From the NCBI RefSeq assembly GCF_006345805.1, contig NC_042998.1, positions 34,782,001-34,846,000 on the forward strand: DNA of 64,000 nucleotides, read 5' to 3'. This document shows positions 10,148 to 38,482 of the stretch, piece after piece. Origin of the DNA: Octopus sinensis (lineage: Eukaryota). The notes beneath the pieces are model-generated. The model searched no databases, was not told where the DNA came from, and was given only the letters and a program-made list of their open reading frames with translations. The position numbers and the translations under genes were made by a program. The first letter of the stretch is position 1; each line of letters opens with the position of its first letter.

Positions 10148-10622
10148 CCTCCTCCACAGTTAGGAAACCTATTACTACCATCTTCATAGTTCAGGTGTGA
10201 AAACCCCGCCACCGATATCGCCGTCACAGTTTCTTCCTGTTCTCTCATTATTATTGCAACGTTGACAGACGTTGAAAGTTCACCTGTATCGGCAATAATA
10301 TCTAATTTAGTAGCAACGCCGAAAGCACCTGCATCAGAAAATATTAGCAGTTGTCAGAAATTTTTATTTCTCTATTATCATATCACTCTGTTCCAGACAA
10401 CGCTGACCACAACTTCAGAATGATTCTTAAAAATTTAGACTGAATAGTGAAAGGTCACGATACATTATGCAGATACGGTTTTCAGTTTACGGCAATTTTA
10501 CATTACAATGACCTCCGTGATTAGTAGAAGTCAAGAGGGTGGTTGTTCTATATTCCAGACATGAGGAATTCTGAACATTATTTACATTGGATGGATATGT
10601 GTCCTCATCTTGTTTGTTGTTA

Positions 10623-10666
10623 CCACAACGTTTCGGCTGTTTTACTTTCCAGCCTACATCAGGTGT
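10623..10666 (-). ncRNA. Degenerate hammerhead motif of the same family
   Basis: GACAC-CTGATGTA-GGCTG-loop-CAGCC-GAAAC-GTT-GTGGT; one core change. Confidence 0.6.
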
Positions 10667-10769
10667 CCTGGTAGAATTCTGAACCCAACCATGGGTTCTC
10701 ATTCATAAGGTAATTTTTGGCTGATGTTATTTTATTTTGCGAGTTCAATTCCAGGCAGTGCCTTGAATA

Positions 10770-10829
<60 letters not shown>

Positions 10830-11921
10830 TATTATTATTATTATCATTATTATTATTTTAGTTTAATGGCCTACCAATGTATACTATGAGTTTCTTTGCC
10901 CTAGGAGTCGGGAAGACACTCGGCAAGAAATGGAAGCAAATTTGAAAGAAGAAAAAAAAATAATGATAAGAAGAAGAAGAAGAAGAAGATATATAGGAGG
11001 TTATAGTTGTTTATTTTCAGTAAATATTATTTATATGTATTCAGAAATTTCGATAATATTTTTAAAATTCAGTTTTATATCCCTGCGTACGCCCGAGTAG
11101 CATCGTATATTTGATTTCTGAAGGGAATATTTTAAAAATTCCCCCAGAGGAAATAACTCCACATTAGACATAAGGCAGACAGCTGCTCAAATTTTCTTAC
11201 GTATCTTTTATATTCACAGACATGAGGTGCGAGGCGTAGGGGCTAGGTGAGTTACACTCGCGATCGATACATCGTCCGTTCGATTCCCGAACCAAGTGGG
11301 GGTGTTGTGTTCTTGAGAAAAACGCTTCATGTCACGATGTTCCAGTCCCCACCCCTGCTGTAAATGAGTAACCCTGCGACTGAATAGCCTTCCGATCTGG
11401 AGGAATTTTGACCAGCTCGCCTCGCCAGTCAGGTGGCATCATTGGAAAGCTAAACGAATGCGATACACATTGTGACCGACAGTCTGGCCGAGACCGCCAC
11501 ATAGACATGAGGACTAATATTATCAAGAAAACAATATTTTGAAGTTTATTTCGTTTTTGTATCTGGTTTGCAAGATTCTTTATGTGAATACGTGTGTTGA
11601 AACAAATTTTGTTGTATCTGGGGAGAGTCATACTACCTTAATATCTAATACACACTCTGGTTCAATTTCCACTCATTTATTATTTATATTATTTTAATAT
11701 ATTTTAAATATATATTATTAAATATTGTTTAAAATATTCTTTTATGACACTCATGCCTTTCTGAATTCCACTAGCATCCAGTGTGTGGTGTAAAACAGGA
11801 ACAGGGTCGCAGACACGGTTTTTGTTTTTCTTTTCTTTTCTGTTTTGAGAGTTAATGTCTGTTCAACTCTAGCCGTACTCAACGTTAACAATGGCTTCTT
11901 TGAATCGGTACACAACCCATA

Positions 11922-15767: not shown

Positions 15768-16193
15768 TGATAAAAATGGTAAGACAACAAAAGAGTGAAA
15801 GAGACCTCGATATTATGTAAATAGAGGAATTTATCTGTAAATGTAGTATGTGACAATTATTCGGTAGCCATGATAAAAGTCCGAGTTAACAACAAACAAG
15901 ATGAGGACAAATATCCATCAAATGTAAATAATGTAAATAATGTTACAAAAAATAAGTCGTGGGGTCGCTTTGTTCGACTAAAGGCGGTGCTCCAGCATGG
16001 CCGCAGTCAAATGACTGAAACAGGTAAATGACTAAATGAATAAATTTACGGCACATAAATTTTAGCGACAAAATCTTATATGGACCCCTAAGGGCGATAG
16101 GGACCCCAGTCGAGCATCACTGGTTCAAAATTTTACAAGAAACATAATATCCTTCGTAAGAGATGCTATTTTATGAAAAATGTAACAACTTAC

Positions 16194-19808: not shown

Positions 19809-19851
<43 letters not shown>

Positions 19852-19854
<3 letters not shown>

Positions 19855-20408
19855 GCCCTGATGCAGTACCAGGCAGTGGCTCTCATGGCTTCTGATCTTA
19901 ACTGATTGGAAGTGTTATCATGTACATTGTTTTGTCTTGGTATAAAAGATGGGCTACAGCAAATATTCTGCTCAATACCACAGATTTGCTTGTCAGTTGT
20001 TTGACCTTAACCAGTTGAGCATGTCCCTTAGTGGCTGACGATATGTGCATCTCTGATCACGAGCAGAAGTAGTGGGGGAGCATCATAGCCATGTGTTGAG
20101 AGGGATTCTTTGGGGTTTGAATAGTTCACCTCTGGAAACATGGGTGGTTCTTTCAACATCCTTAAACAACCCTTATTCAGGGACCGTTTGAGCGGGATGG
20201 GTTACTCAACCTGAAGAAAATTCTAACTGGGCCCCACCTGCAAGGTCATGTGCTGTTTATCTTGATATGAGATCACCATGTCGCGCACATATGGTTGTGA
20301 TGCATGTGCCTGGTGTACCTTTATCAGACGGGTAGTCATGATGGGTATATTGGGCTTCGTATATTTTACCCCAGTGTCACTTTGATGGCATGAACTGCTC
20401 TCTCACTC
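19852..20408 (+). mobile_element. About 560-bp non-coding element inserted in (TAA)n
   Basis: Starts AATGCCCTGATGCAGTACC and ends CTCTCTCACTC(AAT)n. A 5'-truncated copy lies at 20429-20898, a minus copy at 27097-27664 and a 25-bp 3' stub at 24968-24992. Confidence 0.88.
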
Positions 20409-20428
20409 AATAATAATAATAATAATAA

Positions 20429-20898
20429 TAAAAGATGGGCTACGGCAAATATTCTGCTCAATACCACAGATTTGTTTGTCAGTTGTTTGACCTTAACCAG
20501 TTGAGCATGTCCCTTAGTGGCTGACGATATGTGCATCTCTGATCACGAGCAGAAGTAGTGGGGGAGCATCATAGCCGTGTGTTGAGAGGAATTCTTAGAG
20601 GTTTGGATAATTCACCTTTGGAAACATGGGTGGTCTGTTCAACATCCTTAAACAACACTTATTCAGGGACCTTTTGAGTAGGATGGGTTACTCGTCCGGA
20701 AGAAAATTCTAACTGGGCCCCACCTGCAAGGTCATGTGCTATTTATCTTGGTATGAGATCACCATGTCGTGCACATATGGTTGTGATGCATGTGCCTAGT
20801 GTACCCTTATCAGATGGGTAGTCATGATGGGTATACTGGGCTTCGTTTATTTTACCACAGTGTCACTTTGGTGGCATGCACTGCTCTCTCACTCACTC
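20429..20898 (+). mobile_element. 5'-truncated copy of the (TAA)n-associated element
   Basis: Highly similar to about 19943-20408; begins within the AAT tail of the previous copy. Confidence 0.88.
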
Positions 20899-26894: not shown

Positions 26895-27096
26895 CTTTGT
26901 CTGGGGAGAGGAGCCGCTTACGCGTGATTTCGATGTCATATTCATTGAAAGTATACAAAATAACCTGGCAAAGAAAAAATCCCACGAAACAAAACTCCGT
27001 TTCTGGAAAACTCAGACTTTCCTGGCGACCCACCGAGTTACAGGTAGTCTAGTTATTATTATCATTATTGTTATTGTTGTTATTATTATTATTATT

Positions 27097-27664
27097 GAGT
27101 TAGAGAGTAGTACATGCCATCAAAATGACTTTGGGGTAAAATATACGAAGCCCAGTATACCCATCATGACTACCCGTCTGATAAGGGTACACTAGGCACA
27201 TGCATCGCAACCATATGTGCGTGACATGGTGATCTCTTACCAAGATAAATAGCACATGACATTGCAGGTGGGGCCCAGTTAGAATTTTCTTCCGGACGAG
27301 TAACCCATCCTGCTCAGGTCACTGAATAAGGGTTGTTTAAAGCTGTTGAACGAAACACCCATGTTTCCAGAGGTGAATTATTCAAACTCCAAAGAATCCC
27401 TCTCAACACATGGCTATGATGCGCGCCCACTTCTTCTCCTCGTGACCAGAGATGCACATATTGTCAGCCACCAGGGGACATGCTCAAATGGCTAAGATCA
27501 AACAACTGAAAAGCAAATCTGTGGTATTGAGCAGAATGATATTTGCTGTTATTTGATATTTGCCTATCTTTTATACCAAGACAAAACAATGAAGATGATA
27601 ACACTTCTAATCAGTTAAGATCAGAAGCCACGAGAGCCACTGCCTGGTACTGCATCAGGGCATT
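27097..27664 (-). mobile_element. Full-length, more diverged copy of the (TAA)n-associated element
   Basis: Reverse complement of 19852-20408, flanked by (ATT)n on both sides. Confidence 0.88.
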
Positions 27665-27697
27665 TATTATTATTATTATTATATTATTATTATTATT

Positions 27698-29395: not shown

Positions 29396-29750
29396 TAATG
29401 CTAATAATATAGCATGAACAGGATAAACTATCCATATTTTCAGGAAAATCCGTCGACGGCCGGCCATGAGACTCGAACTCGCATTCCTTTCAATACATCT
29501 CAACGCTTCTATTGCAAACTTTATTGACTTTCAACGTAAGTTGAATTTTACGTAAGATAGCGTCTTATAAGGCTAGTTTTACATATCCTAAATTTGCAGA
29601 AGAATTTGTTGTTGGGTCAGTTTAGCTTAAAGATAAAGCACTTGACGCGTAATGACAGGGATGTGAGTTCGAGTCATAAGTCTGGCCGCCGACAGAATTT
29701 TTTACAAAGTATGGATAGTTTATCCTGTTCGTGCCATATTATTAGCATTA
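29396..29750. mobile_element. Foldback (MITE-like) element with two outward-facing tRNA-like units
   Basis: Arms TAATGCTAATAATATAGCATGAACAGGATAAACTATCCATA and TATGGATAGTTTATCCTGTTCGTGCCATATTATTAGCATTA; each arm extends inward into a tRNA-like sequence with GTTCGAGTC. Confidence 0.75.
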
Positions 29751-33164: not shown

Positions 33165-34419
33165 TGTACGAATATGTGTGCGTGCATCTGGGAGATGCTT
33201 GTATGCGATTATCAAAGAAATTTACTCCATGTATTCTAATGTGATTATTTGACAAAATATGATTAAAATACATTTCATTTCTTCTGCAATAAAACGAGTT
33301 TGATAAATATAATGCCACTGAGAAAAAAATGCATAAAATTCTCGGCAAAAAAATTATATTTCTTACATAGAATTCTGTCATGCATTAAAATTACCGAAGT
33401 TCGTGTTTGAATTATTTATCTATCTTTGAGAATGTATTAATGTTAATACACTTTCTCACGATTCAAACAGGAAATATAAATAAACAGAAACGAATACCTA
33501 TTAAAATAAGTCCAATATTTGTTTCGAGCAAATATAGAAAGTATTTAACGAGAATTAAGATGCAAATAAGTGATAGCATTCTCAGTAATTCATGAAATAT
33601 ATTTTTTAATTATATTTTCAAAATGTAAAAGAACAATACATCAAGATAATGCTATAGTTAATTGACCAAAACCAAAACTTAAAATTGAAATTTTTTTTCT
33701 CGAAACATTGATTTTTAAAAGTATCCTGTAAAAAGGAAGACGTCTTCAACTGAACAATGCTTTGACCAAACAAATACATTTTAGAAATAAGCGTAGCATT
33801 TCTTTATAGGATTTTAGAAAAGCAAAACTATTTTACTAGCTTACAGTGATAATATCTCATCGAAAACATTTAATGTAAATTAGACTCTTACCTATATTTT
33901 CCTCCATATTCGTTCAACTGGTGTTCTATACTAAAGTGTGACGGCGCGTGGCTTAGTAGTTAGGGTATTCGACTCACGATCGTAAGTCGTGAGTTCAATT
34001 CCTGGTAGTACGCTGTCGTTGTGCAGGATACTTTATTCCACATTGCCTCAGTCCATTCAGCTGGCTAAAATGGGTAGTAACGGTAATTCAAAGGGCCACC
34101 CTTGTCACAGTCTGTGTCACGCAGAATTACGTTAAGAGTATGTGCATTCGTGGAACACTCAACCACTTGCACATTTGTTTCAGCAGTAGGCGGATCGGAT
34201 CAACTGAAATCTTCGTCGTCGAAACCGACGGAGTACCAGTTGCCAGTTTATACTAAAGTCTTCGTGGCTCTCACTTTTGCTGCCCATGCGCACCTAAGTC
34301 GGTGGTTTGGACTGAGTACGAACGTTTGTTTTAAAGTAGCTTTTAAATGTACTTATTTCCTCTGAATTGTCTGCGATCATCGAAACAGAAATCGACGCTC
34401 TTAGTGCAAACACTACCAA

Positions 34420-37984: not shown

Positions 37985-38101
37985 AAACACACACACACAC
38001 GTATATACATGTGCGTGTATTACAGTTCTATATTTAAGAGATGAGGAATTATGTACATTATTTACATTTGACGGATATTTGTCCTCATCTTGTTTGTTGT
38101 T

Positions 38102-38147
38102 AACACAACGTTTCGGCTGGTATACCCTCCAGCCTTCATCAGGTGTC
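38102..38147 (-). ncRNA. Minimal type-I hammerhead ribozyme motif (inverted partner)
   Basis: GACAC-CTGATGA-A-GGCTGG-AGGGTATA-CCAGCC-GAAAC-GTT-GTGTT. Confidence 0.82.
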
Positions 38148-38214
38148 GTGGGGGAAATTTTGAACCTGGGTTCTCATTCCTAAGGTATTTTTCGATGATG
38201 ATGAGGATATTTAC

Positions 38215-38258
<44 letters not shown>

Positions 38259-38332
38259 TCAGTGCTTGGAATCGAATAATAACATCGAAAAATACCTTAG
38301 GAATGAGAACCCAGGTTCAAAATTTCCCCCAC

Positions 38333-38378
38333 GACACCTGATGAAGGCTGGAGGATACATCAGCCGAAACGTTGTGTT
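38333..38378 (+). ncRNA. Minimal type-I hammerhead ribozyme motif
   Basis: GACAC-CTGATGA-A-GGCTG-loop-CAGCC-GAAAC-GTT-GTGTT. Stem I GACAC/GTGTT, intact core, stem II, palindromic AACGTT stem III, GUU triplet. Activity untested. Confidence 0.8.
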
Positions 38379-38438
38379 AACGTCAAACAAGATGAGGACA
38401 AATATTCGTCAAATGTAAATAATGTAAATAATGTGTGT

Positions 38439-38482
<44 letters not shown>

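What the first reader, a model, noticed from the sequence alone, without database searches (positions are those of the whole stretch)
38022..38432. tRNA-B-box / (AAT)n / hammerhead unit in an inverted pair: candidate SINE-like retrozyme mobilised by Penelope-like elements
Seen: on the minus strand TTCGATTCCAAGCACTGACCTGA (38276-38254; tRNA T-arm/B-box-like, 5'-truncated) runs into (AAT)n and then an approximately 170-nt tail holding an intact minimal hammerhead (38147-38102). The tail is repeated in inverted orientation at about 38281-38425 with a second intact hammerhead. The same parts recur at about 10550-10830 (GAGTTCAATTCCAGGCAGTGCCTTGA-(AAT)n next to an inverted hammerhead tail), and a tail stub lies at about 15887-15943. 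Known: PLE terminal repeats carry minimal hammerheads and often insert with inverted repeats, and retrozymes are non-autonomous hammerhead retroelements. Inference: this is a non-coding Pol III-headed element using a self-cleaving PLE-type 3' module, i.e. a SINE-retrozyme hybrid. I do not know of one described in cephalopods.
Basis: partly seen in the sequence, partly recalled or inferred. Interest (0 to 1): 0.8.

Follow-up and report, generated by a model that had tools for sequence, protein, structure and literature searches.

The report
Penelope retrotransposon with tRNA-type promoter
The repeat is the end-repeat of an abundant protein-coding Penelope-type jumping gene rather than a separate SINE, but its RNA likely starts at a captured tRNA-like promoter and is likely made by RNA polymerase III, which would be unusual for a gene that encodes its own enzyme.

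Summary
The inverted pair, both minimal hammerheads, the B-box stub and the other window copies are there, and full copies carry a tRNA-derived head with A and B boxes.

The SINE-retrozyme reading does not hold. The unit is the pseudo-LTR of a Penelope/Poseidon-type element (RT plus C-terminal GIY-YIG): it follows the ORF stop in 28 of 30 loci, precedes the ORF in full-length copies, and the hammerhead tail is the ORF's first codons. Solo and ORF-linked units share variants and age; no head-to-tail arrays appeared in 128 loci.

What is new is the head. 53 of 70 heads stop within 10 nt of its start, and 10 of 20 body-to-head junctions begin at one G, 13 nt before the A box, which likely marks the RNA's 5' end. 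The 2.7-kb sense strand has no fixed T4 run, unlike 26 of 26 long control elements. Pol III therefore likely transcribes the coding element (about 65%), and internal priming, as known for anole Poseidon, would yield the SINE-like copies. No transcript or cleavage was shown, and no intact copy was found.

The parts
38010..38020 (+). Left copy of a likely 11-bp target-site duplication
   Evidence: Matches 38434-38444 at 10 of 11 bases; weak, because both lie in TG-rich simple sequence
38021..38053 (-). 33-nt PLE 'tail' extension, on this arm only; it equals the stretch that leads into the ORF body in full-length copies
   Evidence: feature described in PMC8557442 and PMC11167929
38054..38197 (-). 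Left arm: pLTR tail. Holds the start codon (38177-38175) and first codons of the PLE ORF; the frame is broken in this copy
38102..38147 (-). Minimal type I hammerhead, core intact; predicted cut between 38107 and 38106
   Evidence: cleavage not tested
38216..38254 (-). (AAT)13 between head and tail
38255..38276 (-). 3' stub of the tRNA-like head, truncated inside the B box
   Evidence: full head in other copies
38277..38433 (+). Right arm: inverted pLTR tail, truncated in the (AAT)n, without the extension; start codon 38303-38305
38333..38378 (+). Second minimal hammerhead, core intact; predicted cut between 38373 and 38374
38434..38444 (+). Right copy of the likely target-site duplication
   Evidence: weak
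10550..10726 (-). Older, more diverged pLTR tail with extension; hammerhead core altered
10741..10828 (+). B-box stub and (AAT)n of the partner arm; its tail is missing and another repeat follows
15885..15941 (+). 57-nt 3' stub of the pLTR tail

Best explanation
The unit is the pseudo-LTR of an abundant Penelope/Poseidon-type retrotransposon, whose RNA likely starts at a captured tRNA-derived A/B-box head and is likely made by RNA polymerase III. Shown: the order ORF stop, 30-nt spacer, tRNA-like head, (AAT)n, start codon, hammerhead, ORF body; a pile of 5' ends at the head start; two 3'-end sites; no fixed T4 run on the sense strand. Inferred: the RNA begins at the G six bases before tRNA position 1 and runs into the ORF. 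The element's protein nicks both target strands and starts reverse transcription inside the RNA, about 120 or 150 nt into the ORF, as shown in vitro for anole Poseidon. It then copies back to the RNA's 5' end, which gives mostly solo pLTRs of about 300 nt or less, often as head-to-head pairs like the window locus. ORF-bearing copies would need tandem or circular templates or a template jump. The hammerhead lies between the start codon and the conserved N-terminal domain, so cutting would destroy the message; it is likely slow or gated by dimerisation or protein.
For: pLTR: 28 of 30 ORF-end loci run into head and tail. Full-length copies have the unit at both ends (L245, L247), and L243 shows the partial tandem with the head in the 5' pLTR. 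The ORF has an RT (Pfam RVT_1, E 3e-8) and 82 longer homologs. The frame is open from tail into body in L244 and L246, and homolog P0005 reads through the hammerhead the same way. 3' ends are bimodal: +117 to +126 in 14 of 30 and +147 to +157 in 12 of 30. Solo and ORF-linked units do not differ. RNA start: 53 of 70 heads stop within 10 nt upstream and none at 11-40 nt, whereas only 5 of 29 copies end in the 100 nt above the spacer. 10 of 20 body-to-head junctions start exactly at the same G, 13 within three bases, 5 of the 20 after an A-rich linker. Pol III: consensus-type A and B boxes at tRNA spacing without a cloverleaf; no T4 site in 30% or more of covering copies over 2.7 kb, against 6.5 expected from composition; 0 of 26 long control PLE families are T4-free, median 2.6 per kb, and 0 of 48 have an A+B box pair downstream.
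Against: No transcript, polymerase or cleavage was shown. RNA-seq gave equal depth in both directions and no pile of starts or ends. The T4 deficit is modest against stricter nulls: dinucleotide shuffles P 0.04-0.19 per copy, synonymous-codon shuffles P 0.40-0.48; 0 of 14 fixed T3 sites extend (P 0.026) but 0 of 14 G3 sites do either (P 0.053). Controls are single copies, one with only 1 T4 in 2.1 kb; one own copy has 4 private T4 runs. A hairpin spans the spacer and head start (-10.6 kcal/mol, z -2.9) and could stop RT there. Both PLE promoters I read about have Pol II-type features, an intron in each (PMC2377424, PMC8557442). Pol III RNA is uncapped, so translation needs an unexplained route. 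No intact ORF was found among the copies read.
Confidence: 0.65

Rival explanations
1. The tRNA-like head is a passenger or a Pol II promoter. A tRNA-derived retrocopy with an (AAT)n tail landed in the pLTR, the element is transcribed by Pol II (own promoter or read-through), and the 5' ends pile up because RT stalls or folds back at the hairpin over the head start.
For: Hairpin with z -2.9 at that place. Many inverted junctions sit on the near-palindrome at the head start. Known PLE promoters are internal with Pol II-type features (PMC2377424, PMC8557442). The T4 deficit is weak against codon and dinucleotide nulls.
Against: 10 of 20 body-to-head junctions start at a single base inside the hairpin's 5' arm, several after an A-rich linker, which fits a template end better than a stall. 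Head-start arms also join unrelated flanks and non-palindromic partners. A and B boxes are kept while the cloverleaf is lost. The T4-free strand is not explained.
Confidence: 0.2
2. Split labour: Pol III makes the short template RNAs from the head, while the protein is translated from separate Pol II read-through transcripts. The solo units would then act like SINEs of the same masters.
For: Solo units outnumber ORF-linked ones about four- to seven-fold. Pol III RNA is poorly translated (established knowledge, recalled).
Against: RNA that starts at the head appears to run hundreds of bases into the ORF, and the whole ORF, not only the pLTR, lacks fixed T4 runs. Solo copies end at the priming sites; anole Poseidon needs template beyond them (PMC11167929), so they are likely dead ends.
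Confidence: 0.1
3. One reading: an independent, non-coding tRNA-headed SINE or retrozyme that borrows a PLE 3' end.
For: Most copies are short and begin at the head; target-site duplications flank 5 of 15 simple head-start copies. Short two-pLTR derivatives with direct hammerheads exist among ORF-start loci (43 of 89).
Against: The whole unit is part of the coding element. No variant separates 76 solo from 37 ORF-linked units (27 columns, lowest P 0.08), divergence is 4.6% against 5.0% (P 0.23), and labels are mixed on the tree (32 changes, 31.1 shuffled). No head-to-tail arrays in 128 loci.
Confidence: 0.05

Closest known systems
Poseidon of the green anole (PAc; PMC11167929)
   Same: RT plus C-terminal GIY-YIG, hammerhead overlapping the ORF start, two internal priming sites giving an optional tail, both target strands primed. 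An anole protein (P0041) is 33% identical over 98% of my 300-aa query; that it is PAc itself is my inference.
   Different: The parts I read (1-2 of 4) describe no tRNA-derived head. PAc is active and in tandem arrays; this family is about 5% diverged and no intact copy was found.
Penelope of Drosophila virilis and Chlamys-3 (PMC2377424, PMC8557442)
   Same: Internal promoter and transcription start inside the pLTR; partial tandems; inverted truncated copies; 30-40 bp tail.
   Different: Their promoters are LINE-like with a spliced intron; here the start lies 13 nt before an A box and the strand lacks fixed T4 runs.
Non-LTR retrozymes (PMC7229834; bioRxiv 10.64898/2026.07.22.740005)
   Same: Type I hammerhead, related to PLE pLTRs.
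   Different: Defined by head-to-tail repeats with two or more hammerheads and circular RNAs; here neighbours are head-to-head and the unit is part of a coding element. The preprint's main text has no occurrence of 'tRNA' or 'promoter'.
SMalpha of Schistosoma (passages in PMC8490949)
   Same: SINE-like repeat carrying a type I hammerhead, so a SINE-with-hammerhead is not new in itself.
   Different: Non-coding, with an active canonical hammerhead; no link to a PLE ORF in the passages seen. Its Pol III boxes are recalled, not read.
tRNA-derived SINEs of molluscs, including octopus OR2 (passages in PMC4758252)
   Same: tRNA-Arg-like heads with A and B boxes are common in molluscs.
   Different: Those are non-coding; none is linked to a PLE in the passages seen. 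I could not compare sequences with OR1/OR2, Repbase or Dfam.
R2 retrotransposon (recalled, no call)
   Same: Autonomous element that likely does without a capped Pol II message and carries a self-cleaving ribozyme.
   Different: R2 is co-transcribed with rRNA by Pol I and has no promoter of its own.

Membership tests
Penelope/Poseidon PLE | Single ORF with reverse transcriptase | tested here: met
   Pfam RVT_1 E 3e-8, 34 bits over a 29.6 cut-off for L065; the second piece (L066) had no Pfam hit; 82 longer RT homologs
Penelope/Poseidon PLE | C-terminal GIY-YIG with CCHH motif and no cysteine linker before it | tested here: met
   By reading natural translations against the definition in PMC8557442; Pfam did not call the domain in my pieces but lists PF01541 for 3 of 82 homologs
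Penelope/Poseidon PLE | pLTRs from partial tandem insertion | tested here: met
   L243, L245, L247; 3 of 89 ORF-start loci reach back to the ORF end
Penelope/Poseidon PLE | Inverted 5'-truncated copy and optional 30-40 bp tail | tested here: met
   14 of 30 hammerhead loci head-to-head; bimodal 3' ends; the window locus itself
Penelope/Poseidon PLE | Minimal hammerhead in the pLTR | tested here: met
   Motif and fold; cleavage not tested
Penelope/Poseidon PLE | RT phylogeny inside the clade | not tested
   No named reference set was available; placement rests on domain order and motifs
Penelope/Poseidon PLE | An intact, transposition-competent copy | tested here: inconclusive
   All long copies read are broken; only part of the family was read
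tRNA-derived SINE | tRNA-derived head with A and B boxes | tested here: met
   Colinear with the genome's own tRNA-Arg(TCT), 44-50 identities over 73 nt, and one tRNA-Met, 46; z 5.5-7.4; parent isotype unresolved
tRNA-derived SINE | Non-coding element distinct from its partner | tested here: not met
   Whole unit is the PLE's pLTR and holds the ORF start
tRNA-derived SINE | Own source lineage | tested here: not met
   76 solo and 37 ORF-linked units indistinguishable; power is limited by a star-like family
tRNA-derived SINE | Transcribed by Pol III | not testable with these tools
   Indirect support only; RNA-seq uninformative
Non-LTR retrozyme | Head-to-tail repeats with two or more hammerheads | tested here: not met
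   None in 128 loci chosen by hammerhead, tail or head; rare two-pLTR derivatives exist among ORF-start loci
Non-LTR retrozyme | Self-cleavage and circular RNA | not testable with these tools
   No pile of read ends at the predicted cut in three RNA-seq runs, which such libraries may not show

The most novel reading that the evidence does not exclude
An autonomous, protein-coding retrotransposon switched to RNA polymerase III: it captured a tRNA-derived promoter into its pLTR, purged T4 terminators from 2.7 kb of coding strand, and translates its RT-endonuclease from an uncapped Pol III RNA, shedding tens of thousands of SINE-like solo repeats as by-products.
Probability: 0.5. Interest if true: 0.82.

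Novelty: new variant of a known kind. Interest (0 to 1): 0.62.

Why it matters
PLE pLTRs, minimal hammerheads, inverted insertions and internal priming are all known. A tRNA-type promoter at the start of a PLE's coding RNA was not found in ten literature searches. If Pol III makes this RNA, a 2.3-kb ORF would be expressed from a polymerase thought to serve only non-coding RNA, which makes cap-independent translation and the open question of what PLE hammerheads do directly testable. It would also show one route from an autonomous element to SINE-like repeats, and that some repeats annotated as SINEs in such genomes are PLE ends. The junction copies give a sequence-only way to map a PLE's transcription start.

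Tried and rejected
ARAGORN found no tRNA in 15 full-head loci and Rfam none in 6: the cloverleaf is lost. A first tRNA-Arg pattern gave 0 hits because of a spacing error; a looser one gave 26 tRNA genes. RNase P cutting at tRNA position 1 was rejected, since most 5' ends lie upstream of it. A bias against TTT codons seen in three 3' pieces was weak over the whole ORF (6-11 TTT against 11-14 TTC per copy) and was dropped. A search for other hammerhead-bearing PLE families in G000 as same-host controls gave 388 hits against 81 for the control; of 50 loci read, only L308 gave a weak hit to a different PLE, so controls came from other organisms. L266 looked like a second subfamily but the search with it returned the main family. 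No RNA holder was listed in the run index. Three raw RNA runs from an organism matched only by species label showed no strand bias and no pile of ends. Three look-ups in earlier findings returned nothing. Lunse et al. 2017 is not held. No RT tree, structure prediction or covariance model was made.

Full report
OBSERVATION. On the minus strand a B-box stub (38276-38255), (AAT)13 and a tail with a minimal type I hammerhead (38147-38102) sit head-to-head with an inverted tail (38283-38432, 95%) holding a second intact core. Only the left arm has a 33-nt extension (38053-38021). An 11-bp near-duplication flanks the pair, but in TG-rich sequence, so it is weak evidence. Two more insertions lie at 10550-10828 and 15885-15941. 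No part of the coding body is in the window.

THE FULL UNIT. A DNA search with the tail returned 42 places; among the 30 loci fetched many carry a complete head before the (AAT)n. The head aligns along its length with the genome's own tRNA-Arg(TCT) genes (44-50 identities over 73 nt) and one tRNA-Met (46), z 5.5-7.4 against shuffles; only these two isotypes were compared. A and B boxes match the recalled consensus, while ARAGORN and Rfam see no tRNA. Exact whole-genome counts, each with 0 for the reversed control: hammerhead word 6,969, head start 3,991, head middle 3,492, spacer above the head 805, ORF body just past the tail 111. Dividing by the match rates in samples not chosen by that word (24 of 114, 14 of 60, 16 of 46) gives roughly 33,000 hammerhead arms, 17,000 head starts and 2,300 spacers. 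These are rough.

IT IS A pLTR. In L023 the head follows the end of an ORF. That peptide has 3,642 candidates in G000, 150 scored. Of 30 loci fetched, 28 run from the stop through a 30-nt spacer into head (whole or part) and tail; L040 has only the head and L050 only the tail. Longer copies give an RT (Pfam RVT_1) followed by a GIY-YIG-type end with a CCHH pattern and no cysteine linker (read), the Penelope/Poseidon layout of PMC8557442. Full-length copies of about 2.7 kb carry the unit at both ends (L245, L247), and L243 shows ORF end, spacer, head, tail and then the ORF. The frame starts at an ATG in the tail, passes through the hammerhead and the extension, and is open into the body in L244 and L246; homolog P0005 (53% identical) reads through the same motif. 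All long copies read are broken further on.

HOW THE SHORT COPIES ARISE. PMC11167929 (parts 1-2 of 4 read) shows for anole Poseidon that the hammerhead cut lies 26 nt after the start codon, that both target strands are nicked and extended, that RT starts inside the RNA at two sites 111-118 nt into the ORF with the optional tail between them, and that the hammerhead cleaves only with protein and is not needed for insertion in vitro. Here the 3' ends of the first 30 hammerhead matches on contig C1 fall at +117 to +126 (14) and +147 to +157 (12); three are shorter and one was misaligned. Neighbouring copies within 1 kb were head-to-head in 14 of 30, 13 of 28 and 21 of 70 loci, with no head-to-tail array; one direct pair of hits 75 nt apart was seen in L129. 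Solo (76) and ORF-linked (37) units share all 27 variable columns (lowest P 0.08), have the same non-CpG divergence (4.6% and 5.0%) and are mixed on a tree (32 label changes, 31.1 shuffled). I infer that solo units are pLTRs copied from the element's own RNA.

WHERE THE RNA STARTS. I read 70 head matches on C1: the first 30 and 40 of the next 42 (two second arms in already fetched loci were skipped; L182 and L183 look like duplicates). 16 run on through the spacer, one joins the ORF end with the spacer deleted, 53 stop within 10 nt of the head, and none stops at 11-40 nt. Above the spacer only 5 of 29 copies end within 100 nt. Five of 15 simple head-start copies have clear target-site duplications. 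Of 89 loci chosen by the ORF-start word (89 of 111 matches), 43 are internally deleted, the body jumping to a tail (29) or a head (14). With six more from other loci, 10 of 20 body-to-head junctions begin exactly at the G six bases before tRNA position 1, three more within two bases of it, and seven further inside the head; five of the 20 have an A-rich linker. Two other junctions join the body to the ORF end about 60 nt upstream. This fits RT running off a defined 5' end and jumping to, or a circle made with, a prematurely ended RNA. It implies that RNA starting 13 nt before the A box runs hundreds of bases into the ORF. This is inference. A hairpin over the same place remains a rival.

WHICH POLYMERASE. 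Pol III stops at runs of four or more T (established knowledge). Across 235 aligned pieces (124 kb) no T4 site on the 2.7-kb sense strand is present in 30% of covering copies; the highest is 10 of 124. Composition predicts 6.5 (Poisson P 0.0015 for none). Five near-full copies have 1, 0, 1, 1 and 4 private runs and no T5. Among 48 PLE families from metagenome contigs of other organisms, the 26 with 1.5 kb or more all have T4 runs (median 2.6 per kb, observed/expected 1.18; the lowest has 1 in 2.1 kb), and none of 48 has an A+B box pair within up to 500 nt downstream, though some contigs end sooner. Other RT-type ORFs in G000 have 1.6-4.2 per kb and one retroelement-like ORF 0.7. Against this: dinucleotide shuffles give P 0.04-0.19 per copy, synonymous shuffles of three 3' pieces P 0.40-0.48, and G4 runs are similarly absent (T: 0 of 14, P 0.026; G: 0 of 14, P 0.053). 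The signal is suggestive, not proof. RNA-seq laid on L079 gave equal depth in both directions, a profile like the genomic copy profile and no pile of ends, as expected for passive read-through.

LITERATURE. Ten searches found no report of a tRNA-headed or Pol III-transcribed PLE, nor of this family. Seen: PMC4209133 parts 1-2 of 4 (minimal hammerheads in pLTRs, single motifs inactive, opposite-strand pairs 100-700 bp apart); PMC11167929 parts 1-2 of 4; bioRxiv 10.64898/2026.07.22.740005 part 1 of 5 and passages; PMC13282606 part 1 of 3 and passages; passages only of PMC8557442, PMC7229834, PMC6962438, PMC8848866, PMC5753468, PMC8490949, PMC2377424, PMC4758252, PMC8967140. No supplements were read; repeat libraries in them, Repbase and Dfam may already list the family. 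Subscription papers are not searched.

VERDICT. A real, abundant feature: the pLTR of a Penelope/Poseidon-type element (about 0.97). Its RNA likely starts at the tRNA-like head (about 0.85) and is likely made by Pol III (about 0.65). It works like a SINE head placed on an autonomous element but is not a SINE or retrozyme by membership. New variant of a known kind; interest 0.62.

Noticed in passing
L293:1600-4200 (G000:C3:126331135-126332858 and on): Tandem array of about 563-nt units, each with a hammerhead-like core of another family and no PLE protein hit; it looks like a classical non-LTR retrozyme array. L271 has a related core.
   Followed up: partly
L137, L179, L205, L040, L449; window 19809-19890 and 10860-10960: Other retroelements insert into (AAT)n tracts, including the one in this pLTR, and split head from tail. 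Many tails preceded by a foreign (AAT)n end are therefore likely interrupted, not truncated. A Dong/R4-type element is a recalled candidate.
   Followed up: partly
L447, L450, L451, L453 and others among L443-L531: Short derivatives made of tail, 30-900 nt of ORF start and a second pLTR carry two direct hammerheads; L450 has a small tandem of period 391. They could be raw material for retrozymes; no amplified family was seen.
   Followed up: partly
L157:1515-1545: The spacer above the head is nearly the reverse complement of the head start and forms a hairpin; it may be the relic of a fold-back when the head was captured.
   Followed up: partly
window 33945-34010, 11240-11290 and 29620-29680: Other tRNA-like A/B-box repeats, unrelated to this family by eye.
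   Followed up: no
window 19834-20895 and 27074-27682: A repeat of about 600 nt present in several copies and both orientations, beside (AAT)n tracts.
   Followed up: no
L314-L318 and L324-L332: Clusters of tRNA-Arg(TCT) genes without introns on contigs C4, C17 and C18.
   Followed up: no
L372 (metagenome contig): A PLE from another organism with only one T4 run in 2.1 kb and no A+B box pair downstream; the closest control to this family's pattern.
   Followed up: partly
L116, L134, L207: Three of 70 heads have neither a tail downstream nor an inverted partner; deletion is likely but a free head was not excluded.
   Followed up: no
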